DNA of 64,000 nucleotides from a virus. The stretch lies in IMG/VR virus record IMGVR_UViG_3300025282_000024; one strand, given 5' to 3'. The notes under the pieces were generated by a model. That model worked only from the letters and a program-made list of their open reading frames with translations. It had not been told where the DNA came from and searched no databases. The position numbers and the translations under genes were made by a program. Shown one piece after another: positions 21,826-46,733 of this stretch. The stretch's first letter is position 1; each line of letters begins with the position of its first letter.

Positions 21826-23034
21826 TTATATATCTAATTTAACTTTAAAAGTATATGCGAGGGTCTCAAGCTTTTTAACTGGTGTTGCTAACTTAACAGT
21901 ACCAATTAATTTTCTTTGATCATCGAATATACCTATTGTACTAATAAATGTTTGTTTTTTAAAGGAAGAAGAATAATTGCATATAGAACCGCTGATGGTG
22001 TTCTTGATTGGTATAGAGTCATTCTCCGAAAAAGATGCACTACCATACTGGTATAAGGGTGCCGCAGACGAACTGGCATATAATTTATATGTAGGGTTGC
22101 TAGAATGATTTAGCAAGCCTTTTGGCGCAGTCATATACATATCTAATGTCGTCACCTCATTTGTTCCACGAAACTCCATCCTATAGCTCGCGGATGGAGC
22201 GAGGCCGCTATCGCCACTGTCATTTGCGCCGGCAGCAAAATCACACCATCTTGCTTGCCGCGTTGCATAGGTAAAATTATATGTTGCTGGCGTCAAATCC
22301 CAACTTCCTGTCAATAGCGCAAAGCCCTCATTATATAAAACGACGCCGGCTACGAGTCCAGAACCGTTTGTTTGAGCATACGTATCGCCAGCAGTTTGTA
22401 TTAATTCTCCATTTTTGTTTTTATCTGTTAATTGTGCTACAAGGGCACCAGAAATATAAAATTGTAGATTAACTGATCCGGGCTTTATTCCGCTATCAAA
22501 AAAGATTGATGGAATACTCACTAAATTAACTTCTTGTGTACCCTTATCTCCGTAAGAAGACGAAAAGGCATACTGATCAGTCAAATAAGTATAATAATTT
22601 AATGTGTTTTTCAGCCCTGAAACATGTGGTCGCGTTGTGCCAACTGCAAATCGTTCTCTACTGATGCTTGCAGAAAGAGGATATGAACCAGTTAAAACGT
22701 CACCATACTCATATGAAGTATTATATGTAGCATCAGTAACGGTGCCAATAGAATTAAAACCACCATCCTTAGTGGTAAAGGGAAATATCAACGCTTTGAC
22801 ACCAGAACCAACTTCCGGATCATAAGTGTGGGCGCTACTGTCCCGGTCGATATTTAGTTCATATAAACTAACATGGCCAGTGGGGACCATGGTATCATTA
22901 TTATTATATGCACCGCTAATCGCACTTAAAGAGTTTAAATAAATATTGCCACTTATAACATCAAAAACATACTGCGGGTGTGTTTTTAAAGTGTTACGAA
23001 GAATATTTTTGTCTTCAAGCTTATAGTATGGCAT
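21826..23034 (-). CDS. Virion structural protein (baseplate/fibre-attachment-like), 402 aa
   Basis: C-terminal ISTIGIFDDQRKLIGTVKLATPVKK...FKVKLDI is paralogous to the adjacent 363-aa gene. Confidence 0.7.
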   Translation of the reverse strand: MPYYKLEDKNILRNTLKTHPQYVFDVISGNIYLNSLSAISGAYNNNDTMVPTGHVSLYELNIDRDSSAHTYDPEVGSGVKALIFPFTTKDGGFNSIGTVTDATYNTSYEYGDVLTGSYPLSASISRERFAVGTTRPHVSGLKNTLNYYTYLTDQYAFSSSYGDKGTQEVNLVSIPSIFFDSGIKPGSVNLQFYISGALVAQLTDKNKNGELIQTAGDTYAQTNGSGLVAGVVLYNEGFALLTGSWDLTPATYNFTYATRQARWCDFAAGANDSGDSGLAPSASYRMEFRGTNEVTTLDMYMTAPKGLLNHSSNPTYKLYASSSAAPLYQYGSASFSENDSIPIKNTISGSICNYSSSFKKQTFISTIGIFDDQRKLIGTVKLATPVKKLETLAYTFKVKLDI

Positions 23035-23039
23035 AACAT

Positions 23040-24131
23040 TTAATAATCCAACCTCACGCGCAGAGTTAACTCATTGCTTGGAGTTTTCTTTAATGGCTCA
23101 GACAATTTAGCAACCGCTAAGAGTTCATTATTTGGCGAGTAAAGACCAATAGTTGTCAAATAAGACACTGGTTGTGCAAAAGGATTGTTTCCTTTAACTC
23201 TAATTTTACTAGCTGACAAATAAGTTGGATTAGAAGAATAATTATAATCTCCCGTGTTAGCTCGACAGAAATAAATTGTTGAATTAAGTTCTGTAGTATT
23301 ATTATATTCAATGTTAACAAGCCTATTTCTTAATCCATCGGCAAAAGTATCGATACTAGATTGTGATAATACGCTCCAAATCTCAGCTGACGTTCCTGGA
23401 ATGCCAAAGTAAACACGACTTCTGGGCGCAGTACTCACTGTCGAGGATCCTGTGGGATATGTGGAAAATATATAAGGGCTGATTACTGCAATGCCGGCTT
23501 GGTAATAAACATGCCCCACGGCTGAATCATTATTTGGCGTTGCAGATGAAGTATAGAGTAGGCCATATTCACCAGTGGGTGAATTCACAAGGAAGCTCGA
23601 TGATGCGCCATAATCCGATATCGTCATCGCGCCGGTCATTGAGGATCCATTGTCGGTTCCCGTCAAGAAACTCATAGAGAATGTGCCTTTCTTAATTTCG
23701 TCTTTAGTCAAAAGTCGAGCAAAATTAACGAAAACCGCCTCATTGAATTTTTCATCACCGGTCTCGTTTAAATTTCCGTTTTTATCAAAGGGTTGAATAT
23801 TTCCGCTAGTATCATAAGGAACCAAAACTTGAGCCATTTGATCATAAATATTCCTTTTCTTTGTATATTGCGCGGCGGTACTAAAATCAGCACTAGTAAA
23901 GTTAACAGATTCAGCGCTAATACCAACAGTAATATCAAAAATATGATTTGCAGAAGAACTTAAATAAGGATAATCATATACTGACTGAAACATGCCATGA
24001 GCATATGTTTTAATATTATTATCAGAATAAGTTCCTGAAGCAATCGTACCAGTAACTGGAATTGCCTCGTGAAGTAGCGTTCTTGTTGTCGCCACATCGT
24101 TATTCAAAAGTGTCTTAAATGTAGTTGCCAT
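23040..24131 (-). CDS. Virion structural protein (baseplate/fibre-attachment-like), 363 aa
   Basis: C-terminal LTTIGLYSPNNELLAVAKLSEPLKK...LRVRLDY; SD AAGGAAGG. Confidence 0.7.
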   Translation of the reverse strand: MATTFKTLLNNDVATTRTLLHEAIPVTGTIASGTYSDNNIKTYAHGMFQSVYDYPYLSSSANHIFDITVGISAESVNFTSADFSTAAQYTKKRNIYDQMAQVLVPYDTSGNIQPFDKNGNLNETGDEKFNEAVFVNFARLLTKDEIKKGTFSMSFLTGTDNGSSMTGAMTISDYGASSSFLVNSPTGEYGLLYTSSATPNNDSAVGHVYYQAGIAVISPYIFSTYPTGSSTVSTAPRSRVYFGIPGTSAEIWSVLSQSSIDTFADGLRNRLVNIEYNNTTELNSTIYFCRANTGDYNYSSNPTYLSASKIRVKGNNPFAQPVSYLTTIGLYSPNNELLAVAKLSEPLKKTPSNELTLRVRLDY

Positions 24132-24146
24132 GTTTTTCCTTCCTTT

Positions 24147-25121: not shown

Positions 25122-25142
25122 AATAATACTCCTTTTCCATAA

Positions 25143-25150
25143 TTAAATAG
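25143..25150 (-). promoter_or_regulatory. Candidate late promoter motif CTATTTAA
   Basis: Intergenic CTANTTA(T/A) match 21 nt upstream of the ATG. Confidence 0.5.
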
Positions 25151-25181
25151 TTACTTTTTGTTGTTTTTTCAATTCTTTATT

Positions 25182-28886: not shown

Positions 28887-28890
28887 TTAT

Positions 28891-29100: not shown

Positions 29101-29115
29101 TTTTAAACTCCTTTT

Positions 29116-32100: not shown

Positions 32101-33069
32101 TTCCGGATCGTGCTGATTGCCAGCCATAAATCTGTCGTCATGTTTGTGGGCTCCTCCAAACCAAAGCGTCCCCATTATCTTGTCAAATTTATTGTTTTCT
32201 TGATCTGTTGATATAAAAAATACCATCCCTTGTTTCGGGATTGTAGAATTTTTAATGATAACAGAGCTAGCCACTCTTCCGTGCTTGGGATCCCAAAACT
32301 CAAACTCGCCTCCAGTAGCGTCTTCCAAATCCTCTAACATGCTCGATATATCCAACCTACATATTGCAATTGCTGCTAAATCAGATGGAAACGCAAGCCC
32401 TACTAATTCTTGTTTAATTTTAACTGGAATTTTATAGATTGTTCTTCCATCAGGCATAATATGTTGATATTTTTGTTTAATAAAATCTCTTTTGTTTTGG
32501 AGGCCGGCCTGAGCGTCTCCTAGTGTATTCATCGAATTTTCAACAATGTTGTCAAGTGTCCGGGAAGTGTATTTAAAATCCATATTATTGATTAATTGGA
32601 ATGGATGTGATGGTGGCCACTTAGGGCTTCCATCTTCTGTTTTATTGCCATCTAAATAAGCTAGCATGGTGCCTGGTATCGAAAAGCCAAATTTTTCTTT
32701 ATCTTTTTTTGATATATAATGTTGATAGGCTGCTTTGCCTTTTTCATTCTTAAAAGTTATAAGTTGAACTTTTACATATTTAAAAATGTCATCGACAAAC
32801 ATGCCCAAATCGTCAAATAATTCTTCCACTTCTAGAAGCAAATCATATGTTACAATCAATTTATTAGAAGAGGTAAAATCGGAGGCTGTAGGATCGCTAG
32901 TCCAGCCGCCGCTTCCTTCAGCCCTTTTATCAATATGCGCATCAATTGCCGACTCTCTATTTGCAGCAATCTCGTTTAAAGCGGCGCTCGCACCCTCAAG
33001 AGTAACTTTATTAATATAAATGTTTGGTAGTATAGAATTTACCAAGCCGTTAAAACTAAAATTTGCCAT
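29116..33069 (-). CDS. Large hypothetical protein, probably virion, 1317 aa
   Basis: Long ORF translationally coupled to the upstream gene. Confidence 0.75.
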   Translation of the reverse strand: MANFSFNGLVNSILPNIYINKVTLEGASAALNEIAANRESAIDAHIDKRAEGSGGWTSDPTASDFTSSNKLIVTYDLLLEVEELFDDLGMFVDDIFKYVKVQLITFKNEKGKAAYQHYISKKDKEKFGFSIPGTMLAYLDGNKTEDGSPKWPPSHPFQLINNMDFKYTSRTLDNIVENSMNTLGDAQAGLQNKRDFIKQKYQHIMPDGRTIYKIPVKIKQELVGLAFPSDLAAIAICRLDISSMLEDLEDATGGEFEFWDPKHGRVASSVIIKNSTIPKQGMVFFISTDQENNKFDKIMGTLWFGGAHKHDDRFMAGNQHDPETAQPYLDYVMVNNSSVQDFRQVAEIKKQIFNFDAEKGLIFGGNYVNNQLTQVAAADFSNLACFGDLISTVNTKRQSKLLFSIDWGKLIKKYCMMPSLLDKLSNLGGGSFATGFLVNNGVPNIKSFKIYRKRVDTVGSSDVVNDTGRKLIYDGFPNIYYTGQLGNANVKKEELILEYDPPVKSALAPVKIENSTSNSAANASHITYYTFTDYDIQNISRGVFEYSLEVEVTDPTLNYFFNFYNQITFAISKLKPMVSFANGGYNPIHSSFGQNTIFNSQTGQFTKLAQQTFEKEGWSTLNTHGAIISAAEAVKSFSMLAQKKPMFQVEDLTDLLDVYTGSPESFNVFSEILILVADKIKSIINSYSTVQIPKVHSFSNPEPKAFGGMPLHSSPTKKIKVEHTFKKPTELVHTTHSDGGYDFLVGTTPSPLPNKTTAQIGLKAMLSNNYITRCLNEFNQYFPNFNGGPFVLPVKIPAYHGPQSNQKLNLNLMPSIGMHLKVPIGGTHLPKYIVDHQSNNENEYWMVVNNILRYKMGLYGDTNSDHKLGYGPDDKIDGSLGINDQMERILKEYQTLAYRGIYFPQDSVVDPLTATDLAASENKLIGDAEGAPNEQFSWDSGVNDPLPSNATLENLENAMPSDQLLKIMHVPWAQNYGQEKLLLSLINGTFIAPTVLDAKLGSFDPMLEKSILYKYVNNLYNSIFAHKSPGVGGVFLDTLYMQVLGDTAGKLQELPFQALALIANLNLESRVSLENFVSPAEELQVNPDFRYYLHGGNPQLYEKPAGIVPSNQDIQNQDLKIDKFGQFWFNHMNVVEVQYLAGYEGVKDIPKSVSNPDGNAKKYEEVFNASAKAPIWEPLTLTKLNAINAAVDQATAKGSSVHLLCRLVKRKYDIFNTKAYEVLDMQVYDGHFLLTTQHQIENLASNAYIDKFPDKKISAGAPGMQMVDTSLKDLSPSVGGIGEVDANEPLQPTVNDAADNEMNQAQQASPNTDNYNF

Positions 33070-34154: not shown

Positions 34155-34168
34155 TTGGATATCCCTTA

Positions 34169-37200: not shown

Positions 37201-40200
37201 CCGGCAATTGGAGAGATAAGACCTGAATCTACGGGCCCATGCCAAATACTATAAGAGTTCTGAAGTTCACCTTCAGAGCCAGAACTGTATAATTCATTAC
37301 CCATAGTACGGAGTTCGCCTAAATCATCGGCGTCTAGAGACCATATACTGGCTGTTCTCCAAAAAGCAGTGTGAGAAGCAGTAATATATCCTTGCGAGTT
37401 TATTGTCTTAAGGTTTCTGTCTGCGCGCAGATCTTTCCAAAAATTGTTAATGAAGTTGGGTCTTTCCCTAACTAAGGAAAGATAGGTGTAATGTTCTCTT
37501 GGATAAATTCCCTCGCTTATCTGCATATGGCGAAATTCGTCTATTGGATTGGCATCTCCACTAATATATGTGGGAGTGTTCCACAACAAATATTTCTTTA
37601 ACGTATCGTATGCTAATATTGTATTATCTGCAGCCTGTAGAGTTTCCCCAATCTGGCCGGCCCTCGACCATACCAAATTTGAATTATTTAAATCAAGAAG
37701 ATTACTAATTTTTGGATCTGGAATATTTGTAAAATATGCTTTTTCATTACCATAAGAAGCCCACATATTGGTTGGTTGATTGTTGGGTGGTACTGAAAAA
37801 GGTTGATCTGATTTGTAAGTATATTGATATTTGAGTGGATTAAATTTTGAAGTAATTGGTGGCTCAACTTGTGATACAATACCATTATTATAACCAATGT
37901 AATCGCCGTCTACAATGGACGATGTAACTTTTGTAAATGTTTGAATGTTGTTCTTGTAATTATAGCGCATTACAGGATTCTGGGCACCTCTAATCTGTTT
38001 CCACGAGGGCCAGCCGTATGGGCCCTGACGATGTAATACAAGACCATTGAATGCAATTGGAGTGGATAAACCGGCGCCGGCAAATACTTTATCAATACCT
38101 GTGTTAGATGACGCGCTCAAAGTATTCTCATACGGAATAACGGGATCGTAGATTATGGAATTAATACCTGCAAAGTCCATTGGCGCTCCGGTGAGACCTC
38201 CATGCAATGATGGACTCCATTCACTGGCTGAAAGGAATGTAATATCAGTAGAAGCCAAACTAGCGTTGCTGAAATTTGGTTGTTCAAAACCATAGTACGC
38301 AGAGCCGGTATACCCATATATCACACTAGCTGTAATCCAAGTATACTGTAAGCTTGTTTGCAACATTTGATGTTGCACAAACCAGTTATCATATGTGGAA
38401 ACGGGGCCAATATATACTGCACCCTCTAACTTTTTGACGAGGGCACCGTTGTTATCTATTACCATATTGCTGGAAACCAAAGTTCCATCCAGCGATCCAT
38501 ATTGTGCCGGCAACGTTAAGCCTGATGTCCAACCTTCGCCACCCCACCAGGCTATTAAACGAGAAACTCTAGAATGTTTGCTTAAGTCTCCTGGGCCTTG
38601 GCGCTCTAAATCAGGATCAAAATTTGTGGTTCCATAATATATCTCTAGAATTTCAGACGCAGAACACTCGCGATGGAAAACACTAAGTTCGTCCAGAAAG
38701 CCTTGCCATGCTCGGCCGAGGCCAGATCTATCTCCTAAAAAGCAATCAGCACCTGTAATGCCTACATATGTGCCGGCTGGCGTTGTATCTTCTGTAACAG
38801 CTAAAGATAACCCATTCACATATATTGTAGGATCGTTAGCAACAGAAGTGGCATCATAAGTAACAGCAATGTGGGCCCACTCATTGGTATCAATAGTTGC
38901 AACCGTAGACCATTCCCCCACTGTAGTATTAAATCTCGCCCTGAAGTAGACTTTACCTGTGGAATCTACAGATAATCGAACGCAATCGGCAAAATCAAAT
39001 ATATGTGGATCATTGTTGCCGCCGGCGTGGCCTAGATTCATTGGATTTACCCAAGCAGAAAGGGTAAATGTTTGTGTAGACCCGACCGCGGTTCCAATGA
39101 GAGCGTCCCAAATTGCTGGGGCCCCAATATTTACACTATAAGCGCTTGGGGCAGTGGCGCCATTGAAATAGAGAACTTTATTATTGTGGTATTCTATCGC
39201 TCCCAGCTTCTTTTTACTATTTCTATTAACTTTGTGGAAAGAACCAGTCCCATCATAATTTGAAGCTTCTACTGAGCTACTGCCGCCAATATAAGGGACT
39301 CCGGCTAATGCATATGCCGCCACAGTTTGTGCATCACTAAAATATCCAAATTGGTTTGTGTGGTCTGTATACCACTCATTAAGAGGTGTTCTTACATTTA
39401 AATTTCTCCATGGAAGTGCATTATAAACACTATATTCTGCAGCTGCAAGATCAAGCATTCCTTCGCCCATCGTTGCAGGACTTCCGGGTGCGGAAAAGCG
39501 ATTAACTATAATAGATTTAGTACTACCAGTTAAGTCTCTTCTAGGTATAGCAAAATCAATAACACCAGTAACATATGTAGAGGGGGCATATGTTGTTGGC
39601 AAATTGCCATCAGATTCGGCTAAATATCTATTATTAATTGAGCGCCCGTTGGTCATCACCAATTCATAATTGTGTGAATAATTTCCTATATTTGTAGCAT
39701 CCAAAACTTGATCGGGGCGGCCAGGAATAGTAGAGGAAGACCCAGTAAACATTTTAATATTTCTGATATTCACTGGGCGTTTTGTTGACTCTCCCCTAAG
39801 CATGCTCCCCTTTTCAAGAGAAGGATCTACGGTCATACTATTATTAAAACCAGAACCAAAAGCGTAAAGACTACTGGCCGAAAACATAATCCTCCACCCT
39901 TCAATACGATTTGCCGCTGTATCTGGGCTTGTGTTCTGCGGCCTTAAATTGCTATATATGTGTCGATAAACTTTTCCTCCTACAAACTTTTCAGTAAAGG
40001 GGGATTGTATAGGGCGCCCATAAAGCGGGCCATAAGTATCTTCATGAAGGTTGGTTATATCTATGCCAGCTTTAAAATTATTAGCAACAGCATCGTGATA
40101 TCCTCCCGAAAGGGAAGCGCTGTATATATCAAAAGGCGTGTATAAGTCTCCTTTTGAATTTAAATAAGACTTGTCTACTTCTGTTAATTTAAAATTTGTA

Positions 40201-43200
40201 ACACTAGAATTATAATTCTGCTTTCTTTTTCCGTCATTTAGTGCCAAGTCATCATTACAACTTTTAAAAGCTTTAACAGAGGCGCTAGGAATTTGTAAAT
40301 AACTTCCGCTGGTATTATATTTTATAAACGTCAGCAAGTCAGTCTGTTTGTTTACAAATTCATTTACTCCGCCTTTAATGAGCGGAGATTCATCAACTTT
40401 TAATCTGTAGGGTTTAGCCAATCTTCGTGTAACATATGTGGACCCAGCGTAAGTAGTTATTCCTGATGAACCAGAGGATCCTAAAGTGGGGGCGCTTGCA
40501 TTTGTCTCATTTATAATAGAATCGAGTATTGTTTGCTTGTTAGAATTAACAAAAGCATTGCTAGAGCTTAATGGAGGTGTCGATCTGCTAGTACGGTCTT
40601 TCCACCACAAACAATTGTTTGCTTGAGGGTTCTTACAAATGAAAGATGAAATAGTAGGATTATTTTGAGGAGAGCCTGTATATCCATTTCCCGAAGAATC
40701 AGTTCCTTCCAAATCGTTGAGTTTATAATAAGCTACCAAGTTACCAGGAAGCAAAGAAAACACGTTCGAATCACATCCGTTATTGTATAATAAAAGAGCC
40801 TCTGCTGCGCTTAACTCTTTATCAAACAAAGAGAAATTACCAATAGTGCCATCAGTATAATTTATGTCGAAACCACGACCAATTTCAAAAGCATGATTAA
40901 GATTTTCCATTGCTGTATACGTAACACTATTAAAAGCCGTCATCGCGAGGGCTATTCCGTTGATATAAATAGAAATACCATCAGCTGCTGTGGCTCCTCC
41001 TCCTCCGTCGTAAGTTACTGTCACATTGATAAGCTGGTCTTCATAAGCGGTTATGGCTGTAGAGCGAGCATGCGCTGTAGCTCCGGAGCTTTCATCTGTC
41101 AAATAAAGATCAAACCTATCTGAACCATCAGTAAAAAGCCAATATTCTTGATTACTTAGAGCACCATACTTAGAAAACAGGTTTAATGTTGTCATATCCG
41201 ATGTTTTAAGCCAGAAGTTGGCCGAAAAAGGACTATCTGTGGCGCCATCTCCGAAGCTAAATGCTGCAGCATCAGGAACAGAAAAATACTGACTTGACGC
41301 AGCTACAAATGTCATCATTCCAGCCGTATTTAATGGCGCATGGCCAAATTCCCAGTTATAAAGAAGCTCATTAATTCCTAAAATATTCCCTTCAATGGTT
41401 GGTGTTTTGTCTTCTAGCGTGGGATATTTCCATCTATATTTATTTCTTTGCAACACAGTATTTTCAACCATGGTGCGAACATTTGAACCATATTGATCAC
41501 TTATATCTGAAGACATTGGCACCAAATAACCTAAGAGAACATCTAACGTAAGGTCAATCCATTTATAAAAATCAACATATTTATCTAAACTTGGAGTGTT
41601 GCCGACTCTCTCATAAAACATTTGACGAAGCTTCGCCATATCTTTATAATCATCGCGATATTTATTTACTGGTTCGCCAACAAGATTATTAAAGTCTTTA
41701 ATTGTAGAGAACATCTTTATCATTTCATCAGAAATGGTTTGATACATACTCTTTTCAATTGACGTATAATAATTCGTAGGTCTTGCTATTTCGCCCTTAT
41801 TGAAAAATATATCATCGTCTGTTAAAATATTAACCATATCGGCACTATTGATCATTTCAGGCAATTGCTTTTTGGCCGAGCTAACATATTTTTTATTTAT
41901 TGGTAGTGTGGAGTTGGCGGGAAAATTAAATCCTTTGGGCAAATATTGTTTGCCAACAATCTCACCAAACTGTCCGTATTTAGAAACTTTTTGGGCTGAA
42001 CCAGAAGAATAATCAGCCCCAATAAATTCACCACTACCATCGGATCCGGTTACAGTATCAAAAGTCCAATTTAAAACTAACGTATCTATTTCAGGTATTC
42101 TTGTTCCAGTAAGTGCAGTTGGATATAAATAAGAGCTTCTATAAGGATGTTCAGCACCATAATTTTTTACATCTTGATTGTGTTGTTGTATGGTGCCTGT
42201 AGGTAAATATTTATACCAAACGCGAGTAGAAGAAATGTTTCCATCTGCTTTTTGCAGAAGGGTTCCAGAAAAATTAGTTCTATGGGCGCCGATATAAGGA
42301 GCCTTGGGATAATTTAGAAAACTGCTGCCGCCGTCTGCGCTAATGGTGCCTGTATGTAAAAATTCATTTTTAACATAATCCGCTATTTTTTCGACGCCAT
42401 AAAACTCAACTGCATATCCAGCATTGTCCACCGAGCCGGATGAACCATCTGGTAAATTTGCATTAGAATTTGGTTTAACGGAAACAGAAAAAGTCCAACG
42501 CGTGTCATCGAACACTTCATCAAAATAACTGCTGGAAAGTCCTAGAGCGCCAATAACAGAGCCTGCGGTACCAGTTAAAAGGAATTTAGACCTCTGTGAG
42601 TAATCAGACGCCTTAACCGCATAAACTTGGAAGTTGGCGCTATCGGTTGTTGCCCAAGTTAAATCATTCCCTGTGGCATCGTCTTTAACTTGATGCATAC
42701 CAAATAAAGATGCTGTCGTAAACGGCATATAAGTTCTAAATTGGCGACTTGGCCCTTCATCTGTTGTCGCCACCGTATTTGTATCGGCCATGGAATGTCG
42801 AATTGGAAAATGCACTTCCGACTCCATCGTAAAACCTATATAATCAGTCAGGCCATAAGTCCCTGAAATAATTGCCTTTGAGTTTGAATTTGTACTTGAA
42901 GAGTGCGGGAATACAGTTGCTTCTGAGCTTCCAGTCAAACCAAAGTTTACATATTTCTTATACTCAGCAACAGATTTATAATTATCTTTTAAAGTATAGG
43001 TTACTCTATTTCCATATGTGTTGATACGATAAATTTCATCGCCCACACCAAAACAATGAATTAAGTTTCTAAAGGATTTTTCTGTTCCCTTGGTTTTATT
43101 AATATAGACAATATTATCGTAGATGTTGTGATATATTCTGTTTTTTATATTATAGAGCTTTTCCTCGAATAAAGATCGATCATTCCTACTTTTAAAATAT

Positions 43201-44855
43201 TCTAATTCGGTTGCATCAGAAAATAATTCAGGAAAATATTCAAACCCAATTGATTGTAATAGCCTATCATTAAATGGAGCCGGCTTGTGATTGAAACCAA
43301 CATGTGATTTATACTTAAGCTTTGGAATAGAATTAATTTGTTCTGCTAGTGAATCAAAATAAGAGCCCACAATCTGAGTCAAGTTTTTTAGCGGTGAATA
43401 TTCTTTGTCTTCATCTTCTTCTATAATCCACGCCGGCAACGAATGATACATGGAAGAGTTATTAGCAAAATCATGAATCTCGCCTTCTTCTTTTTTGGTG
43501 TCCAAAGTCGATTGAACGTCCGGGTGGAAAGGATATAAAATTGGATCTTTAAACTCTTTAGTCACTAAACTAGAACTGACCATTGCAGAACCAACATTTC
43601 TTGACGCAGAATCATATCCAACGAAAGTACCATTACTTATTCTTCCTGAATAATCCAGCACTACACTATCGTAAGTGGTGTCTCCAACAATACCTTCATT
43701 AAATTTATAATAAACACCTAAAGCTGTATTTGCATCATCAGTGTTGGTGCCGCCGCCTACGGGTTCAATCATATATCTAATAACTTCAGCAGAGCTTCTT
43801 TCATCTTTCCAAAATCTAAATTCGTCTAATGAACCAGATAATTTACCCCATCCCAATGTTGGAGCAAAAGTTCCGGATGGCGCTGTTATGAGAGAGCCAA
43901 TTGTAGCATTTATATTTCCACTAACATAACCAATAGAAGATCCCGTGACAATCGTTTGATTGCACGCGCCATCAAAATAAAAATTAATTTCTACGTTGCT
44001 GCCGCTATTTTTTAATGCGAATGCATAATGATGCCAACTATCATCTGCTATGGATGATGTGGTTATCGAAGACCCAACAATCTCATCTGAGAAGCCGGCC
44101 GTTCCAGACATATATGTAACTCTAAAGGGGGACACGGCGGTTGTGCCGGTCATTTCAATTGTTAGGCGACCGTAATTTGCGCTTGAAGAAATAAAGTCAG
44201 ACGTACTAGCATCAAAAATAACTTCGCGGCCAGTTTTGGAAGTAACAAATTCAGATTTTTTCATCCAGAATTCTACAGTATTTCCGTCTATCCCTCCAAT
44301 TTTTAAATTACATTCTCTATTTTTAGATGGCTCCCAGACATTGGCATAGCCGCTTTTATAATCGCCGGAAGAATCAACAATATCTTTATCTTTTGATCTA
44401 TTTGATGTATTTGGGCCGCCTTTTGCAAAAATATATTCATATGAAGCGGTTGCGGGTGCACCATATCCATCGGAATCTGCAATTTGAGTACCCCATCCAT
44501 CTGCAGACAAAATAACATAACCATTTGTTCGAGGATATACTTCTTCAAAAACATACAAATCGAAAAATGAAGAACTTAATTCCCACTGAATTCTTTCTTT
44601 TAAAGAGCCATCATAGGGATAGGTTTCATAAATTCTATCAAATGCATCAACATAATATTTTTTTGCTGACCCAAATCTTGCAAAGTTTTTAAGATCAGAG
44701 AAGTCAACAGGAGGTCTATGTCTCTCCCTCTCTTTGAAATAATCTTTCAAATAACCAACAGATTCTAACGTACCATCTTCTACTAAAGACTCTGGATTGG
44801 CATTTGTTAAAATTATATCATGACTTTGATAAAGTTTTTTATAATCTATGGGCAT
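34209..44855 (-). CDS. Giant baseplate wedge/adhesin protein with multiple LamG (ConA-like lectin) domains, 3548 aa
   Basis: LamG motifs TVEFWMK..WHHYAF..YFDG..GSLDEFRFW, FSANFWLK..VTVTYDG..IYING and FTLSAWV..WAHIAVTYD..IYVNG..GFLDEL; gp7/gpI-type KTKGTEKSFRNLIHCFG motif. Confidence 0.8.
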   Translation of the reverse strand: MPIDYKKLYQSHDIILTNANPESLVEDGTLESVGYLKDYFKERERHRPPVDFSDLKNFARFGSAKKYYVDAFDRIYETYPYDGSLKERIQWELSSSFFDLYVFEEVYPRTNGYVILSADGWGTQIADSDGYGAPATASYEYIFAKGGPNTSNRSKDKDIVDSSGDYKSGYANVWEPSKNRECNLKIGGIDGNTVEFWMKKSEFVTSKTGREVIFDASTSDFISSSANYGRLTIEMTGTTAVSPFRVTYMSGTAGFSDEIVGSSITTSSIADDSWHHYAFALKNSGSNVEINFYFDGACNQTIVTGSSIGYVSGNINATIGSLITAPSGTFAPTLGWGKLSGSLDEFRFWKDERSSAEVIRYMIEPVGGGTNTDDANTALGVYYKFNEGIVGDTTYDSVVLDYSGRISNGTFVGYDSASRNVGSAMVSSSLVTKEFKDPILYPFHPDVQSTLDTKKEEGEIHDFANNSSMYHSLPAWIIEEDEDKEYSPLKNLTQIVGSYFDSLAEQINSIPKLKYKSHVGFNHKPAPFNDRLLQSIGFEYFPELFSDATELEYFKSRNDRSLFEEKLYNIKNRIYHNIYDNIVYINKTKGTEKSFRNLIHCFGVGDEIYRINTYGNRVTYTLKDNYKSVAEYKKYVNFGLTGSSEATVFPHSSSTNSNSKAIISGTYGLTDYIGFTMESEVHFPIRHSMADTNTVATTDEGPSRQFRTYMPFTTASLFGMHQVKDDATGNDLTWATTDSANFQVYAVKASDYSQRSKFLLTGTAGSVIGALGLSSSYFDEVFDDTRWTFSVSVKPNSNANLPDGSSGSVDNAGYAVEFYGVEKIADYVKNEFLHTGTISADGGSSFLNYPKAPYIGAHRTNFSGTLLQKADGNISSTRVWYKYLPTGTIQQHNQDVKNYGAEHPYRSSYLYPTALTGTRIPEIDTLVLNWTFDTVTGSDGSGEFIGADYSSGSAQKVSKYGQFGEIVGKQYLPKGFNFPANSTLPINKKYVSSAKKQLPEMINSADMVNILTDDDIFFNKGEIARPTNYYTSIEKSMYQTISDEMIKMFSTIKDFNNLVGEPVNKYRDDYKDMAKLRQMFYERVGNTPSLDKYVDFYKWIDLTLDVLLGYLVPMSSDISDQYGSNVRTMVENTVLQRNKYRWKYPTLEDKTPTIEGNILGINELLYNWEFGHAPLNTAGMMTFVAASSQYFSVPDAAAFSFGDGATDSPFSANFWLKTSDMTTLNLFSKYGALSNQEYWLFTDGSDRFDLYLTDESSGATAHARSTAITAYEDQLINVTVTYDGGGGATAADGISIYINGIALAMTAFNSVTYTAMENLNHAFEIGRGFDINYTDGTIGNFSLFDKELSAAEALLLYNNGCDSNVFSLLPGNLVAYYKLNDLEGTDSSGNGYTGSPQNNPTISSFICKNPQANNCLWWKDRTSRSTPPLSSSNAFVNSNKQTILDSIINETNASAPTLGSSGSSGITTYAGSTYVTRRLAKPYRLKVDESPLIKGGVNEFVNKQTDLLTFIKYNTSGSYLQIPSASVKAFKSCNDDLALNDGKRKQNYNSSVTNFKLTEVDKSYLNSKGDLYTPFDIYSASLSGGYHDAVANNFKAGIDITNLHEDTYGPLYGRPIQSPFTEKFVGGKVYRHIYSNLRPQNTSPDTAANRIEGWRIMFSASSLYAFGSGFNNSMTVDPSLEKGSMLRGESTKRPVNIRNIKMFTGSSSTIPGRPDQVLDATNIGNYSHNYELVMTNGRSINNRYLAESDGNLPTTYAPSTYVTGVIDFAIPRRDLTGSTKSIIVNRFSAPGSPATMGEGMLDLAAAEYSVYNALPWRNLNVRTPLNEWYTDHTNQFGYFSDAQTVAAYALAGVPYIGGSSSVEASNYDGTGSFHKVNRNSKKKLGAIEYHNNKVLYFNGATAPSAYSVNIGAPAIWDALIGTAVGSTQTFTLSAWVNPMNLGHAGGNNDPHIFDFADCVRLSVDSTGKVYFRARFNTTVGEWSTVATIDTNEWAHIAVTYDATSVANDPTIYVNGLSLAVTEDTTPAGTYVGITGADCFLGDRSGLGRAWQGFLDELSVFHRECSASEILEIYYGTTNFDPDLERQGPGDLSKHSRVSRLIAWWGGEGWTSGLTLPAQYGSLDGTLVSSNMVIDNNGALVKKLEGAVYIGPVSTYDNWFVQHQMLQTSLQYTWITASVIYGYTGSAYYGFEQPNFSNASLASTDITFLSASEWSPSLHGGLTGAPMDFAGINSIIYDPVIPYENTLSASSNTGIDKVFAGAGLSTPIAFNGLVLHRQGPYGWPSWKQIRGAQNPVMRYNYKNNIQTFTKVTSSIVDGDYIGYNNGIVSQVEPPITSKFNPLKYQYTYKSDQPFSVPPNNQPTNMWASYGNEKAYFTNIPDPKISNLLDLNNSNLVWSRAGQIGETLQAADNTILAYDTLKKYLLWNTPTYISGDANPIDEFRHMQISEGIYPREHYTYLSLVRERPNFINNFWKDLRADRNLKTINSQGYITASHTAFWRTASIWSLDADDLGELRTMGNELYSSGSEGELQNSYSIWHGPVDSGLISPIAGATYNRRIPQVYTDSPFVAFYLGQTEWEAGEQSGYNPSYNTYKEYAEDVRSIGKDYGIVPEYRISEHMEYHVVDMASSGGFLADNPGWLTLTGSVISSSADTTLLGSGSFYTVYSNADFLKYFQPIDSDFSSVAMPTNLTLKCNALMKFLPYDGFYPSERSVQLATLFSQSYAPNADLTGSEANWRTLMTPFFAPGILYNSIKSGLAVDYPLFTGSLTDYITANAIDHYVGIATTPPTKRAPFEALVNPDYWLSDIGKIVDAETHRSSSIDSTGSFGKPANDLYNMAINNFTSEVPRFFLGATDGKNDNDYGPMTTFVSKETLEGSAPLFEDPLGAKAEGNFIYFTADKTYKMRIVCSHSEIRDLATLQDTSTVAGALRYNNSASYEYNPPTIMMYNRAFDRTYQTKYLSLTASDSGYNRGVVPWFSGTHTVGVQVNTTHIPVYGSSFGPPIYAGSHTAYAPGIGWAGKATGSFEPYTPPYYNGYSHIEISYTPEFSGYKTITDVMSAITASYYRDMITSGAAVAISWPPDVLNTVPPAAQAAMQLSASINWNQVVTEGSKTRWVIQPKWECPILDFTNITASIETVNREWSIAKGMWHQYGTIPSADSGVFLEIQPVSGSQDNDTVGNLAEKLGFNLNPSKKLGQIPIEGKTISEAIVAVPFYEDSQGSRNFFHIDRKTIDWAQSKLLNPEIKDIDYLIKNLSSVDGAVKYKPAPSVVNLVKAMKKYVIPPGFNFLMNKNQEPMAMVIFEFDHHFTQDDLVKMWQGVLPSEKRTDSASGIQCAVSEIDFGMNLLAGEVWKPDPTNTGPAPAPPKAEDVLDANKGFDLLNDVPGDKIGPAGIGFPKNIQWMVFKVKQKASWSYHDITATNMMPGPPPPGAGPAPVPGLKPLDYSYNWPYDFFSLIELAKINETVTLTPRTEPISTPTIIDMLKILPLEVLWTIPPVSDSVTETDPDTFIKNALGSLPLISSPQQFIILQAQAQENFASITADDLKLK

Positions 44856-44861
44856 TCTATT

Positions 44862-46733
44862 TTACTCTACTCGAAACTTGTATTCTTCAGATTGTTCAAC
44901 ATATTGAGAATTCAAATAATATACGAATTTTATTGCATATACATTGTCTGACTCCAGAAGAGACATATCTAAATCAAAATAACTCCCGCTCTTATCAAAG
45001 GACAGTCTAGTATAGTTGGCGCTTCCTGTGCCATAAGATATTACTTCCAAATCATCGTTAACACGATAAAGTTTATAATAGACATCCTCAACTAAATCAA
45101 TTGGTGCTTTTTTTGAAGACACTGTATAGATGGTTGGACTCCAATCTTTTTTTCTTGTGTACAATCTAAATCTAGCTTTTGTATTTTGATTAGAATATGA
45201 TGGCTTTAAGTTAGTAATATTACTCACAAATTGCTGATTTGGGTTAAATGATTGTCCGGGCCAAACTTGAGTTAAACTTTTCGGCTCAATTGATCCTGTA
45301 TAATATTGAACGCTGGCGCTGTGCCACACATCATAAACAGTAGTTAAAGATGTCGAGCCAGTAAACGCAAAAGAGGCTGAATATATGCCGGTAGAAACAT
45401 AACCTCCCGTGACATTATAATCTCCAGATGTTACGACGCCCCCACCAACGCTTAAAGCTAACGTCGCGCCCGAAGGGGCAGTATTATCCGAAGAGCCGGA
45501 ATATAAACTAACCAATATAGCGCCAGTTCCAACTGCCGGAATGTTCTTTAATTGACCTCGTACATAATTGTAATAATAAATTGTATTTAAATTATCGGCA
45601 GCAGGAGCTAAAGAACTGCTGTAATAAAAGCTCCCTCTATCATCTTTTATAGAAGAATCCCACCGAGCTTCAATAATTGGTCTATAGAAAAAATATTGAG
45701 ACCCTCGTGCAAAAAACTTTTTAGTATAATAGGAAACAGAGTCAGATTCTTCAGTGGAAGACAATTTAACTCCGACACCATAATTTGATTTAGAGCCCAA
45801 TACATTTCCTGCACTATTAATCCATTGCTCAACTAGCGGAGTAATATCTAACTCCAAATCCTCGAAACCAGTATTGAAGGAAGCAGTAAAAGAGGAAGAG
45901 GCGTCTGAATAATAATCACCGCCCTCTGTTGTCCACAAAGTATAATCACTTCCGCCGCCAAGAGTTCCACTTAATCCACTATTGGCAACGCTGTCACTAC
46001 CCGTAACATCAAAAACGGCGGCGGCGCTAGAAGATATAGAATTTAAATTTCCTGCTGCTCCTGCGGCGGATGAAGTAATATAAACAATAGAACTAACAGC
46101 ATTTGCACTAAAGTCTGCGCTAGCTGACGTATTTATTATTGTAACTATATTGGTGGCGCATGCAGCAGTGCTGCCTCCAATGTGAAAAAAGTCGGGCGCC
46201 GGGGTTGCATCATTTATAGAAGTAAACAAATAATTCGCTGTTGCTCCAGTTAAATGGAGTGTGTTAGCGGCTGTATTCGCTCGTACAGTTATAGATGCGC
46301 TAGCGGCAATATCCGTATCTGTTGTGTAAAGCCAGTTTGATGGCTCTTCATTAGAATAATTTTCCATATCTAAGCCATTGCCCTCTTGCCAAGATTGAGA
46401 AATCGCTGATACAACTAGATTAAAATCCTTTGGCGTTGTTTGGGAATGTCTTGCGTTGAACATTCTTAAATAAAAGGAAACGCTTCCGGAGGCCGGGATA
46501 TTTCCTTGAGTGCGATCATATGAAATATAATTCGCGGCAGTCCCAGTGACCGGAAATTTAATTAAAATTCTAGCATATTCAGTTGATGAAGCTGATTCCT
46601 GTGCATATATGGAAAATGATTCTACTATGTCTGATTGGCCCATATTGCCACTGACGCCGCGTTCGGTTAAATTAGCTTTATAAGCATTAGTAATTGTATT
46701 GTCTGCGTCTGCAGTGTATCTTTTAATAGCCAT
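44862..46733 (-). CDS. Virion structural protein (baseplate region), 623 aa
   Basis: S/T/A/G-rich; contains SQSWQEGNG...W and WTTEGGDY motifs; coupled to the gp6-like gene. Confidence 0.7.
   Translation of the reverse strand: MAIKRYTADADNTITNAYKANLTERGVSGNMGQSDIVESFSIYAQESASSTEYARILIKFPVTGTAANYISYDRTQGNIPASGSVSFYLRMFNARHSQTTPKDFNLVVSAISQSWQEGNGLDMENYSNEEPSNWLYTTDTDIAASASITVRANTAANTLHLTGATANYLFTSINDATPAPDFFHIGGSTAACATNIVTIINTSASADFSANAVSSIVYITSSAAGAAGNLNSISSSAAAVFDVTGSDSVANSGLSGTLGGGSDYTLWTTEGGDYYSDASSSFTASFNTGFEDLELDITPLVEQWINSAGNVLGSKSNYGVGVKLSSTEESDSVSYYTKKFFARGSQYFFYRPIIEARWDSSIKDDRGSFYYSSSLAPAADNLNTIYYYNYVRGQLKNIPAVGTGAILVSLYSGSSDNTAPSGATLALSVGGGVVTSGDYNVTGGYVSTGIYSASFAFTGSTSLTTVYDVWHSASVQYYTGSIEPKSLTQVWPGQSFNPNQQFVSNITNLKPSYSNQNTKARFRLYTRKKDWSPTIYTVSSKKAPIDLVEDVYYKLYRVNDDLEVISYGTGSANYTRLSFDKSGSYFDLDMSLLESDNVYAIKFVYYLNSQYVEQSEEYKFRVE

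What the first reader, a model, noticed from the sequence alone, without database searches (positions are those of the whole stretch)
21826..46733. Pervasive [ST]-[GAS]-[ST] tripeptide in a subset of virion proteins: candidate phage O-glycosylation sequon
Seen: TGS/SGS/SAS/SSS/TAS/SGT/TGT, usually after a hydrophobic residue, recurs densely in otherwise dissimilar proteins. Examples are the 402-aa (LTGSYPLSAS, FSSS, LTGSW, ISGS), 363-aa (VTGTIASGT, LSSS, LSAS), 623-aa (ASSSFTASF, YSASFAFTGS, HSAS, YTGS) and 3548-aa proteins (dozens of copies). It also occurs in the 140-aa head protein and the capsid insertion (PTGS, ASGT, VSGT, LSGT). It looks scarce in SbcDC, primase, portal and the 1234-, 1317-, 2343- and 1354-aa proteins. 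Established: some phages glycosylate virion proteins, and Gmd starts GDP-fucose/GDP-rhamnose synthesis. Inference: a motif shared across different folds points to a modification signal, so the phage may glycosylate surface-exposed virion proteins at a defined sequon using its own sugar pathway, which begins at the right edge of this window.
Basis: partly seen in the sequence, partly recalled or inferred. Interest (0 to 1): 0.82.

Follow-up and report, generated by a model that had tools for sequence, protein, structure and literature searches.

The report
Ser/Thr-Gly/Ala-Ser tag on outer virion proteins
The outward-facing baseplate, fibre-like and capsid-surface proteins of this uncultured marine T4-like phage and its whole clade carry the ordered motif hydrophobic-Ser/Thr-Gly/Ala/Ser-Ser three to five times more often than chance; it may be where a phage-made sugar coat attaches, but no chemistry shows this and a purely structural role is nearly as likely.

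Summary
[ST][GAS][ST] occurs 67 times against 27 expected in the 3548-aa protein and 21 against 10 in the 623-aa protein. It is weaker in the paralogous 402- and 363-aa proteins. TGS and SAS are the two most over-represented of all 8000 tripeptides. The excess survives local shuffles, is order-specific and is not a DNA word or a tandem repeat. The refined motif is hydrophobic-[S/T]-[G/A/S]-Ser: 47 observed against 8.5 expected. Asn and Asp cannot substitute.

All 93 long representatives of the 3548-aa family share the excess (2.3-6.5x). So do the cultured Flavobacterium phage immuto and Microcystis phage Mel-JY01. T4, S-PM2 and P-SSM2 do not.

The sites lie at strand ends and hairpins of Ig-like and ConA/LamG-like domains. 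Most sites turn over between lineages.

Every clade member examined has a soluble tandem GT4 pair followed by a hypervariable sugar island, placed just upstream of the late sigma and baseplate genes in the marine relatives mapped (about 20 kb of other genes intervene in immuto). This is a single phylogenetic event, and outgroups show no link between glycosyltransferases and the motif.

My odds are about 0.4 for a glycosylation acceptor and 0.35 for a structural idiom. The scan has reported the same motif on other DNA of this clade several times.

The parts
34209..44855 (-). 3548-aa giant distal baseplate (wedge) protein. It has ConA/LamG/pentraxin-like jelly rolls and three Pfam Laminin_G_3 domains. 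It is the main carrier of the motif.
   Evidence: 67 [ST][GAS][ST] vs 27 expected; with a preceding hydrophobic residue 38 vs 8.9. Pfam PF13385, E 1.6e-35. AF2 model plus Foldseek matches pentraxin and LamG folds. All 93 long representative orthologues are enriched 2.3-6.5x.
44862..46733 (-). 623-aa baseplate protein in the gp7 position, directly downstream of gp6. It is built of tandem Ig-like beta-sandwiches and carries the motif.
   Evidence: 21 vs 10.4 expected; with a preceding hydrophobic residue 12 vs 3.3. 27 of 28 orthologues are enriched; L032 has none. AF2 pLDDT 62, Foldseek Ig-like. Sites lie at strand ends and starts.
23040..24131 (-). 363-aa fibre-like protein, paralogue of the 402-aa protein, with a modest motif excess.
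   Evidence: 10 vs 4.7 expected, p 0.015. Its C-terminal domain is shared with the 402-aa protein and with Mel-JY01 and immuto fibre-like proteins.
21826..23034 (-). 402-aa fibre-like protein, paralogue of the 363-aa protein, with a modest motif excess.
   Evidence: 9 vs 4.5 expected, p 0.034. With a preceding hydrophobic residue, 6 vs 1.5, p 0.003.
33069..34154 (-). 361-aa protein between the 3548- and 1317-aa genes, with a marginal excess.
   Evidence: 3 vs 0.9 expected. With a preceding hydrophobic residue, 2 vs 0.3, p 0.04.
2747..3169 (-). 140-aa head-module protein with four [ST]G[ST] sites.
   Evidence: 4 vs 0.7 expected, p 0.005. The positions are kept in the G001 and G007 orthologues.
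3..1229 (-). Major capsid protein, cut off by the window edge. All six sites lie in the insertion domain (residues 166-305 of the fragment).
   Evidence: PHROG 138, major head protein. [ST]G[ST] 5 vs 1.2 expected, p 0.008. The G001 full-length capsid protein has 12 vs 4.5, ten of them in residues 162-300.
62918..63895 (-). GDP-mannose 4,6-dehydratase (Gmd). It is the last gene of a sugar island that lies mostly beyond the window edge.
   Evidence: PF16363, E 6e-125. In relative G001 the orthologue sits inside an island of about 20 kb holding glycosyltransferase, sulfotransferase and carbamoyltransferase genes.
61446..62135 (-). gp55-like late sigma factor. It sits between the sugar genes and the baseplate hub, in the same orientation and tightly packed.
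   Evidence: PHROG 234; ORF map.
46733..48529 (-). gp6-like baseplate wedge protein. It serves as an internal negative control.
   Evidence: PHROG 219. 1 vs 2.4 expected. All 32 orthologues have 0-5 copies, at or below expectation.
49028..56059 (-). 2343-aa virion protein. It serves as an internal negative control.
   Evidence: 2 vs 5.6 expected. The orthologues are not enriched.
11318..14140 (-). 940-aa tail fibre with a T4-type distal fibre C-terminus. It is rich in Ser, Thr, Gly and Ala but not enriched, so it is a negative control.
   Evidence: 12 vs 15 expected. PHROG tail fibre families.

Best explanation
The motif hydrophobic-[Ser/Thr]-[Gly/Ala/Ser]-Ser-hydrophobic is a selected surface tag on the outward-facing domains of the virion. 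These are the gp7-position protein, the giant LamG/ConA-like wedge protein, two fibre-like paralogues, the capsid insertion domain and a small head protein.

The most likely mechanism is inferred, not shown. Late in infection, soluble phage glycosyltransferases would read the motif in the cytoplasm as an O-glycosylation acceptor at exposed strand ends and hairpins. The candidates are the clade-conserved tandem GT4 pair, with sugars supplied and extended by a hypervariable island that includes Gmd. The result would be a strain-specific glycan coat on baseplate and capsid.

Shown: the motif, its specificity, its clade-wide maintenance with site turnover, its location on beta-sandwich edges, and the conserved GT pair plus variable island beside the baseplate genes.

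Inferred: that the two are connected, which enzyme starts the chain, and which hydroxyl is the acceptor.
For: (1) The signal is ordered and hydroxyl-specific.
- Hydrophobic-[ST][GAS]S occurs 47 times vs 8.5 expected (z 13.9).
- The same frame with Asp or Asn in place of either hydroxyl residue is at expectation.
- In 93 representatives (285,000 residues, 3314 instances), Ser is 4.0x favoured after hydrophobic-[ST][GA]. Thr is 1.4x. Asn and Asp are not favoured.
- Generic type I'/II' turn preferences would include Asn and Asp. The GT-poor phage Atu_ph07 shows just that generic pattern.

(2) Only a subset of virion proteins carries it.
- The same phage's 940-aa fibre, its 2343-, 1234-, 1317- and 1354-aa proteins and gp6 are not enriched.
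- The baseplate and fibre proteins of T4, S-PM2 and P-SSM2 are not enriched, even though they are rich in Ser and Thr.

(3) Density is maintained while sites turn over.
- In the N-terminal ConA-like domain of 142 representatives there are 6.85 copies per sequence vs 2.63 expected.
- They are spread over 74 alignment columns, and only 3 columns are occupied in more than half of the sequences.

(4) The fold does not need the motif.
- The L032 orthologue of the 623-aa protein aligns throughout but has 0 copies.
- The LR756508 orthologue has 1.

(5) All 13 clade genomes and contigs examined carry the tandem GT4 pair, with GT2 genes nearby.
- In the five whose neighbourhoods I mapped (G001, G002, G003, immuto, Mel-JY01) the order is PD-(D/E)XK nuclease, then the tandem GT4 pair.
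- In the three islands I annotated (G001, G003, immuto) a sugar island of different content follows. In the marine relatives it is co-oriented with, and directly upstream of, the late sigma and baseplate genes.
- The islands encode no multi-pass membrane proteins, so there is no flippase, polymerase or priming transferase.

(6) Published LC-MS of immuto DNA found canonical dA, dC and dT plus fdPreQ1. Its glycosyltransferases are therefore not bulk DNA glycosylases (PMC10516641).

(7) There is a precedent: mycobacteriophage capsid and tail-tube glycosylation, as cited in PMC12619734.
Against: - No mass spectrometry or glycan staining exists for any member of the clade.
- The middle Gly or small residue is often the best-conserved position. 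Several sites sit at two-residue hairpins, or at the fold-wide LamG glycine before the L-D-E-F-R strand. A structural reading therefore fits many sites.
- Glycosyltransferases are universal in the clade, so co-occurrence amounts to one phylogenetic event.
- Outgroups show no association. P-SSM2 has GT1, GT2, GT25 and epimerase genes but no motif. Atu_ph07 has none of seven sugar families, yet the motif with a preceding hydrophobic residue occurs 19 times vs 6.7 expected in one giant protein. G008/L032 keeps the GT pair but its 623-aa orthologue has lost the motif.
- Non-target proteins do not avoid the motif: 20 vs 18.7.
- Motif Ser/Thr are only moderately more conserved than other Ser/Thr: 0.78-0.85 vs 0.65.
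- The AF2 models are of modest confidence (pLDDT 62 and 55).
- The sugar islands could instead feed host surface-polysaccharide pathways. That is the usual reading for marine myophages (PMC12801897).
Confidence: 0.4

Rival explanations
1. The motif is a lineage-specific structural idiom. Hydrophobic-[ST]-G-S would cap beta-strands and form tight hairpins (an ST-turn plus glycine). Hydrophobic-S-A-S-hydrophobic would be an amphipathic strand with a small inward residue. The idiom would then have been inherited and propagated within the Ig-like and ConA/LamG-like domain families that build this clade's distal baseplate. No enzyme reads it.
For: - Sites map to strand ends, two-residue hairpins or strand interiors in both AF2 models.
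- At aligned sites the Gly/Ala is the most constant position. The third position drifts to Ala, Asn or Gly at some sites, for example site 250: SGT, SGS, SGA, SGN, SGG.
- Site 340 overlays the conserved glycine that precedes the LamG C-terminal strand.
- Many sites in the 623-aa family are positionally conserved.
- A GT-poor phage, Atu_ph07, shows a weak excess.
- Non-target proteins do not avoid the motif.
Against: - Asn and Asp, which are classic turn formers, are excluded, and Ser is preferred 4x over others.
- The excess is absent from other beta-rich, Ser/Thr-rich tail proteins of the same phage and of T4, S-PM2 and P-SSM2.
- Orthologues keep the fold without any copy.
- Most sites are occupied in fewer than half of the lineages, yet density is held at 2.6 times expectation.
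- The motif recurs in protein families with no detectable homology to one another, and in the capsid insertion domain.
Confidence: 0.35
2. The motif is read by something other than a glycosyltransferase. Candidates are another hydroxyl-directed modification (phosphorylation, sulfation, acylation), a shared assembly chaperone, or a decoration protein that docks on exposed Ser pairs.
For: - The specificity arguments are the same as for glycosylation.
- The island of relative G001 also encodes a sulfotransferase, an APS kinase, a carbamoyltransferase and methyltransferases.
- Another reader noted a GT2 fused to kinase-like and nucleotidyltransferase-like domains just beyond the window (finding e1-5704287; I did not verify this).
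Against: - No conserved kinase or chaperone candidate was identified across the clade.
- The only enzymes I found conserved next to the module are the GT4 pair and a nuclease.
- The modifying enzymes in the islands vary between phages, whereas the motif is constant.
Confidence: 0.13
3. The excess is an artefact of composition, of local Ser/Thr/Gly-rich loops, of tandem repeats or of internal duplication.
For: - The carrier proteins are rich in Ser and Thr (18-23%).
- One relative's tail spike (immuto, 1053 aa) does contain tandem [ST]AS[YF]Ax arrays.
Against: - The excess survives shuffles within 10-aa blocks, and permuted patterns are not enriched.
- There is no preferred spacing between sites in the window, immuto or Mel-JY01 proteins, apart from that one tail spike.
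- BLAST finds no internal repeats in the 3548-aa protein.
- There is no codon or DNA-word bias.
- 93 of 93 clusters at 50% identity are enriched.
Confidence: 0.02

Closest known systems
Virion glycosylation of mycobacteriophages by phage-encoded glycosyltransferases (Freeman et al. 2023, Cell Host Microbe). I know this work only through citations in PMC12619734 and PMC12801897; the paper itself is not held.
   Same: In both cases a tailed phage carries its own soluble glycosyltransferases, and the proposed or shown acceptors are virion surface proteins glycosylated in the host cytoplasm.
   Different: - There, the glycans sit on C-terminal tails of the capsid and tail-tube subunits, and they were shown by mass spectrometry. 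Here the candidate sites are a short ordered motif dispersed through folded beta-sandwich domains, mainly of baseplate proteins, and nothing has been shown chemically.
- The hosts differ: Gram-negative or cyanobacterial here.
- The sugar island here is far larger and hypervariable.
GtfA/GtfB O-GlcNAcylation of serine-rich-repeat adhesins in Gram-positive cocci (from established knowledge).
   Same: Both involve a cytoplasmic pair of adjacent GT-B/GT4-type proteins, and acceptors of the form Ser-small residue-Ser (S-A-S, S-V-S).
   Different: - Serine-rich-repeat acceptors are long low-complexity arrays. Here the sites are single and dispersed.
- Pfam finds no GtfA-specific DUF1975 domain in the phage GT4 proteins.
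- The best PDB sequence match of the conserved GT4 is chlorovirus NY-2A B736L, not GtfA.
Giant-virus capsid and fibril glycosylation by virus-encoded machinery (chloroviruses, mimivirus; from established knowledge).
   Same: Both have virus-encoded nucleotide-sugar synthesis (including Gmd) together with many soluble glycosyltransferases, acting independently of host secretory machinery. The glycans differ between strains.
   Different: - Those are eukaryotic viruses.
- Chlorovirus capsid glycans are N-linked at atypical sequons.
- There is no homology between the acceptor proteins.
LPS and cell-surface auxiliary gene clusters of marine cyanomyophages (P-SSM2, S-SCSM1, S-SCSM2R; PMC12801897).
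   Same: Both are large clusters of GT1, GT2, GT10, GT11 and epimerase genes in marine T4-like phages.
   Different: - Those clusters are interpreted as host-surface or DNA modification.
- The baseplate proteins of P-SSM2 lack the motif.
- Here the island sits at a fixed locus next to a conserved GT4 pair and the baseplate module.
Type II' beta-hairpins and ST-turns (a general structural motif; from established knowledge).
   Same: Both have glycine at the first loop position after a strand, flanked by small polar residues. Several of the sites here map to two-residue hairpins.
   Different: - Generic turns accept Asn and Asp as readily as Ser and Thr, whereas here they are excluded.
- The [ST]-A-S sites lie inside strands.

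Membership tests
Phage virion O-glycosylation system (mycobacteriophage type) | Phage-encoded glycosyltransferases are present in the genome. | tested here: met
   The window itself holds only Gmd. All 13 related genomes and contigs examined hold GT1 and GT2 family genes. G001 has at least 7 glycosyltransferase-like genes next to its Gmd orthologue.
Phage virion O-glycosylation system (mycobacteriophage type) | Glycan is covalently attached to virion proteins, shown by mass spectrometry or glycan staining. | not testable with these tools
   I found no proteomic or glycan data for any clade member.
Phage virion O-glycosylation system (mycobacteriophage type) | Acceptor sites lie on C-terminal extensions of the capsid and tail-tube subunits. 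| tested here: not met
   The sites are dispersed through folded domains, mainly of baseplate proteins, and lie in the capsid insertion domain rather than at C-termini.
Bacteroidota general O-glycosylation sequon D-[ST]-[AILVMT] | The three-residue sequon is enriched in target proteins. | tested here: not met
   22 observed vs 20.0 expected in the four carrier proteins. That system is also periplasmic (from established knowledge).
N-glycosylation sequon N-x-[ST] | The sequon is enriched in target proteins. | tested here: not met
   57 observed vs 59.9 expected.
GtfA/GtfB serine-rich-repeat glycosylation | Two adjacent GT-B (GT4) proteins are present. | tested here: met
   A tandem pair of about 420-480 aa and 336-455 aa GT4-like proteins (fused to a GT2 domain as a 664-aa protein in G001) is conserved in G001, G002, G003, immuto and Mel-JY01.
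GtfA/GtfB serine-rich-repeat glycosylation | The GtfA-type DUF1975 insertion is present, and the acceptors are long serine-rich repeat arrays. | tested here: not met
   Pfam finds only Glycos_transf_1-type domains. The motif sites are single and show no periodic spacing.
Generic beta-turn / ST-turn structural motif | The motif is located at strand-loop boundaries or tight hairpins. | tested here: met
   The DSSP secondary-structure assignment of the AF2 models puts many [ST]G[ST] sites at strand ends or two-residue hairpins. Model confidence is modest.
Generic beta-turn / ST-turn structural motif | Ser/Thr can be interchanged with Asn/Asp at the flanking positions. | tested here: not met
   Hydrophobic-[ST][GAS][DN] occurs 15 times vs 10.1 expected, and hydrophobic-[DN][GAS][ST] 13 vs 10.3, against 47 vs 8.5 for Ser. 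Asn and Asp are not favoured in 3314 instances.
ConA-like lectin / Laminin_G_3 superfamily (for the 3548-aa protein) | Profile match and jelly-roll fold. | tested here: met
   PF13385, E 1.6e-35, three stretches. Foldseek matches pentraxin, neurexin LNS and laminin LG domains with probability 1.0.

The most novel reading that the evidence does not exclude
A very large clade of aquatic T4-like phages would coat the outer face of baseplate, fibres and capsid with O-linked glycans. The clade holds at least 694 protein clusters at 50% identity and includes cultured Flavobacterium and Microcystis phages. The glycans would attach at a defined short sequon, hydrophobic-[S/T]-[G/A/S]-Ser. A conserved cytoplasmic GT4 pair would start the chain, and a hypervariable sugar island would diversify the glycan from strain to strain, much as O-antigen loci do in bacteria. 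This would be the first sequon-directed protein glycosylation system of phages of Gram-negative bacteria and cyanobacteria.
Probability: 0.35. Interest if true: 0.85.

Novelty: new variant of a known kind. Interest (0 to 1): 0.58.

Why it matters
If the tag is a glycosylation site, abundant marine and freshwater myophages would display strain-specific sugar coats on the very parts that touch the host. That bears on adsorption, host range, stickiness to marine polymers, grazing and decay.

It would also give a function to the large sugar-gene islands of aquatic phages, which are currently read as host-surface modification. And it would supply a short portable sequon with its enzymes for glyco-engineering.

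If the tag is structural, it is still a clade-diagnostic sequence signature of a family of giant baseplate proteins that has no other annotation.

The question can be tested directly, because two cultured phages (immuto and Mel-JY01) carry both the motif and the gene pair.

Tried and rejected
- **DNA-level cause.** The nine-base words at the sites are all different, and codon usage at the sites equals general usage. Rejected.
- **Tandem repeats or periodic spacing.** None in the window, immuto or Mel-JY01 proteins. Only the immuto 1053-aa tail spike has arrays with 6- and 9-residue spacing.
- **Internal duplication of the 3548-aa protein.** No self hits.
- **Independent enrichment in non-homologous C-terminal regions of orthologues.** These tails turned out to be mostly homologous, shuffled cassettes, so the test has little power. 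The small unalignable parts are still mildly enriched.
- **Avoidance of the motif in non-target proteins.** Not seen.
- **T4-type late promoter TATAAATA upstream of the sugar genes.** The word is not enriched and not intergenic in this window, so timing could not be inferred.
- **DNA glycosylation as the role of the conserved GT pair.** Unlikely for immuto, given its published nucleoside analysis. Not excluded for the marine relatives.
- **Co-occurrence test inside the clade.** Uninformative, because every member has glycosyltransferases.
- **Independent contrasts outside the clade (T4, S-PM2, P-SSM2, Atu_ph07, LR756508).** No association.
- **Annotation of the carrier proteins.** PHROGs, Pfam and PDB sequence searches gave nothing for the 623-, 402- and 363-aa proteins. 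For the 3548-aa protein the PDB sequence search gave nothing and Pfam found only Laminin_G_3.
- **A fold-matched control.** The giant proteins of S-PM2 and P-SSM2 contain no LamG_3 domain, so I could not make a control matched for the ConA-like fold.
- **The window's own genome.** It is not held, so the genes beyond the right edge were read only through relatives.

Full report
**1. Context**

All genes in the window lie on the minus strand. They belong to an uncultured marine T4-like myophage.
- Head and packaging: capsid protein, portal and terminase.
- Replication and repair: SbcC-like protein and primase.
- Tail: gp6-like wedge protein and T4-type fibre C-termini.
- Regulation: gp55-like late sigma factor.
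- Sugar metabolism: Gmd at 62918-63895.

The whole genome is not held. A search with gp6 found 32 related IMG/VR contigs at 38-100% identity, including one complete 190.6-kb genome, G001. The nearest cultured relatives, at about 32-34% gp6 identity, are Flavobacterium phage vB_FspM_immuto and Microcystis phage Mel-JY01.

Yes. Counts against 1000 composition-preserving shuffles:
- 3548-aa protein: 67 [ST][GAS][ST] vs 27.4 expected (z 7.8).
- 623-aa protein: 21 vs 10.4 (z 3.6).
- 363-aa protein: 10 vs 4.7.
- 402-aa protein: 9 vs 4.5.

Further properties:
- The excess is unchanged when residues are shuffled only within blocks of 10, 20 or 40.
- It depends on order. The permuted patterns and [ST][DN][ST] are at expectation, while [ST]G[ST] alone is 32 vs about 9.5.
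- Among all 8000 exact tripeptides in the four proteins, TGS (20 vs 3.4) and SAS (19 vs 4.5) rank first and second. Codon usage at the sites is ordinary.
- The flanks are hydrophobic at -1 (1.8x) and +3 (1.6x). Nothing is conserved further out.
- There is no preferred spacing between sites.
- Refined motif: hydrophobic-[ST][GAS]-Ser occurs 47 times vs 8.5 expected (z 13.9). With Thr in the last place it is 14 vs 6.5. With Asp or Asn in either hydroxyl position it is at expectation.
- Known sequons are not enriched: D[ST][AILVMT] and N-x-[ST].

- The 402- and 363-aa proteins are paralogues. They share a C-terminal domain with a family of fibre-like proteins in Mel-JY01 and immuto.
- The proteins called scarce are at expectation, not depleted: pooled, 20 vs 18.7.
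- The head proteins show a modest but reproducible [ST]G[ST] excess. The 140-aa protein has 4 vs 0.7. The capsid has 5 vs 1.2, all in the insertion domain. The full capsid protein of G001 has 12 vs 4.5, ten of them in residues 162-300.

**3. How widespread is it?**

- Every orthologue of the 3548-aa protein is enriched, down to about 40% identity. So is every orthologue of the 623-aa protein except the most divergent one, L032.
- gp6 and the 2343-aa protein are never enriched in the same contigs.
- An exhaustive HMMER search with the N-terminal ConA-like domain found 694 clusters at 50% identity. All 93 long representatives are enriched, 2.3-6.5x with a median of 3.9x for the form with a preceding hydrophobic residue.
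- Across their 285,000 residues, Ser is 4.0x favoured after hydrophobic-[ST][GA]. Thr is 1.4x. Asn and Asp are not favoured.
- In the two cultured relatives, most of the proteins downstream of gp6 are enriched.
- T4 is not enriched in gp6, gp7, gp8, gp10, gp12, gp34, gp37 or Hoc.
- The giant baseplate proteins of S-PM2 and P-SSM2 are not enriched either.

The motif is therefore not a general property of beta-rich, Ser/Thr-rich tail proteins.

**4. Where do the sites sit?**

- The AF2 model of the 623-aa protein (pLDDT 62) consists of tandem beta-sandwiches. Its only matches are weak, Ig-like ones.
- The first 1100 residues of the 3548-aa protein (pLDDT 55, with well-predicted domains) contain two jelly rolls. 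These match pentraxin, LamG and ConA-like folds at probability 1.0. Pfam finds three further Laminin_G_3 domains.
- [ST]G[ST] sites typically have the first hydroxyl residue as the last strand residue. The Gly-Ser then lies in a two-residue hairpin or loop. [ST]A[ST] sites often lie inside strands.

**5. Conservation against turnover**

- In the 623-aa family many sites are positionally conserved.
- Motif Ser/Thr are retained somewhat more often than other Ser/Thr: 0.78-0.85 vs 0.65.
- In the ConA-like domain of 142 representatives there are 6.85 copies per sequence vs 2.63 expected. They occupy 74 different alignment columns. Only three columns are occupied in more than half of the sequences.
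- At partly occupied columns the alternatives are near-motif variants such as SGA, SGN, TGA and LGS. The Gly is usually the most constant residue. One nearly universal site (SGS or SAS at residue 340) overlays the glycine that precedes the C-terminal strand of the LamG fold.
- The L032 orthologue of the 623-aa protein aligns along its length yet has no copy. The fold therefore does not require the motif.

**6. The sugar genes**

In the window, Gmd is followed by three small ORFs, the sigma gene and the baseplate hub. These are co-oriented and abutting.

In G001 the syntenic stretch is an island of about 20 kb. It holds:
- Gmd and three more short-chain dehydrogenase/reductase (SDR) sugar enzymes;
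- GT11, GT10-like, GT2 and GT47/RXYLT1-like transferases;
- a sulfotransferase with an APS kinase;
- a carbamoyltransferase, a methyltransferase and an aminotransferase fragment.

The island is bounded by a tandem GT4 pair and a PD-(D/E)XK nuclease.
- The nuclease and the GT4 pair are conserved in G001, G002, G003, immuto and Mel-JY01.
- GT1 and GT2 hits are present in all ten marine relatives tested, as well as in immuto and Mel-JY01.

The DNA after the pair differs between phages.
- G003 has a CMP-sugar cytidylyltransferase, GT2, GT77-like and GT47-like transferases, FkbM-type methyltransferases, a radical-SAM enzyme and an aminotransferase. It has no Gmd.
- immuto has aminotransferases, a PglB-like acetyltransferase, an epimerase and glycosyltransferases.
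- None of the islands encodes a multi-pass membrane protein.

The best PDB sequence match of the conserved GT4 is the chlorovirus NY-2A glycosyltransferase B736L, at E 2e-8. Published nucleoside analysis of immuto DNA shows canonical dA, dC and dT, with dG replaced by fdPreQ1 (PMC10516641). Bulk DNA glycosylation is therefore not the role of its glycosyltransferases.

**7. Does the motif travel with the sugar genes?**

Inside the clade this cannot be tested, because no member lacks them. Outside the clade I found no association.

| Phage | Sugar genes | Motif |
|---|---|---|
| T4 | no GT1/GT2 | none |
| S-PM2 | no GT1/GT2 | none |
| P-SSM2 | GT1, GT2, GT25 and five epimerases | none |
| Atu_ph07 | none of seven sugar families | weak excess in one 4449-aa protein: 34 vs 20; 19 vs 6.7 with a preceding hydrophobic residue |
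| LR756508 | a remote sugar cluster | orthologue of the 623-aa protein has no excess |

- In Atu_ph07, Asn is favoured as much as Ser. This is the generic turn pattern, and the protein has no detectable homology to the 3548-aa protein.
- G008 (L032) keeps the GT pair although its 623-aa orthologue has lost the motif.
I could not reproduce such a contrast with the genomes I reached.

**8. Weighing the explanations**

For an enzyme-read tag:
- strict order and hydroxyl specificity;
- exclusion of Asn and Asp;
- restriction to outward-facing proteins of several unrelated families, including the capsid insertion domain;
- density maintained while sites turn over;
- dispensability for the fold;
- a conserved soluble GT pair plus variable sugar island next to the baseplate genes (directly adjacent in the marine relatives mapped), with no export machinery.

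For a structural idiom:
- location at hairpins and strand ends;
- glycine as the best-conserved position;
- overlap with a fold-wide LamG glycine;
- no avoidance elsewhere;
- no association with glycosyltransferases in outgroups.

My odds are about 0.40 for O-glycosylation, 0.35 for a structural idiom, 0.13 for another modification or binding partner, and 0.02 for an artefact. The rest is unassigned.

**9. Comparison with what is known**

- The closest precedent is mycobacteriophage virion glycosylation, which I know only through citations. There the sites are C-terminal tails of the capsid and tail tube, not a dispersed sequon on baseplate domains.
- The tandem cytoplasmic GT4 pair and the Ser-small residue-Ser acceptor recall GtfA/GtfB and serine-rich-repeat adhesins. 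However, the GtfA-specific domain and the long repeat arrays are absent.
- Large glycosyltransferase islands in marine cyanomyophages are known and are read as host-surface modification. P-SSM2, which has one, lacks the motif.

**10. Status within the scan**

The same motif has been reported several times on other DNA of this clade. Follow-up agents reached similar, chemically untested conclusions. Those are AI notes, not independent evidence.

This report adds:
- the Ser-specific refinement, with Asn and Asp excluded;
- the site-occupancy spectrum over 142 representatives;
- the published immuto DNA chemistry;
- the hypervariable-island comparison;
- a set of outgroup contrasts that do not support a link between glycosyltransferases and the motif.

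Noticed in passing
L041:5425-19998 and L042:44-7253 (G001 = IMGVR_UViG_3300030419_007436); L049:7394-19679 (G003); L053:3965-15945 (immuto): A hypervariable sugar island follows a conserved gene trio in this phage clade, in the order PD-(D/E)XK nuclease, GT4, GT4-like, variable island; in G001 and G003 it then runs straight into the late sigma and baseplate genes. Its content differs completely between relatives: GDP-fucose type with sulfation and carbamoylation; CMP-sugar type with a radical-SAM enzyme; and amino-dideoxyhexose type. No membrane proteins are encoded.
   Followed up: partly
L044:35287-38448 (immuto 1053-aa 'tail spike'): This protein has tandem [ST]-A-S-[YF]-A-x hexapeptide arrays and SGSF-x-GDGS-x-LTG repeats. 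They are followed by YadA/Hep_Hag-like head repeats, as in trimeric autotransporter adhesins (best PDB match BpaC, E 6e-10). It is the densest motif carrier I saw: 67 vs 34.5 expected.
   Followed up: partly
window:44862-46733 (residues about 135-265): The 623-aa family has a swappable inserted domain. About half of the orthologues lack it, and at least two unrelated versions exist.
   Followed up: no
window:11318-14140 and 14303-15229: The 940-aa and 308-aa tail-fibre proteins share a C-terminal domain of about 150 aa (30% identity). This domain matches T4-type distal fibre families. Neither protein carries the motif excess.
   Followed up: no
L042:877-2418 (G001): A 513-aa protein fuses a metallo-beta-lactamase-fold domain, an SCP2-like domain and a Rieske 2Fe-2S domain. 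It sits inside the sugar island, next to the GT4+GT2 fusion protein.
   Followed up: no
window:62139-62921: Three small ORFs (99, 83 and 77 aa) are packed with overlapping or abutting ends between Gmd and the late sigma gene. I did not examine their function.
   Followed up: no
L062:7979-21328 (Agrobacterium phage Atu_ph07, 4449-aa virion protein): This protein shows a weak generic excess of hydrophobic-[ST][GAS][ST], 19 vs 6.7 expected, in a jumbo phage with none of seven sugar-gene families. Asn is as favoured as Ser after the Gly. It is a useful baseline for a purely structural effect.
   Followed up: partly
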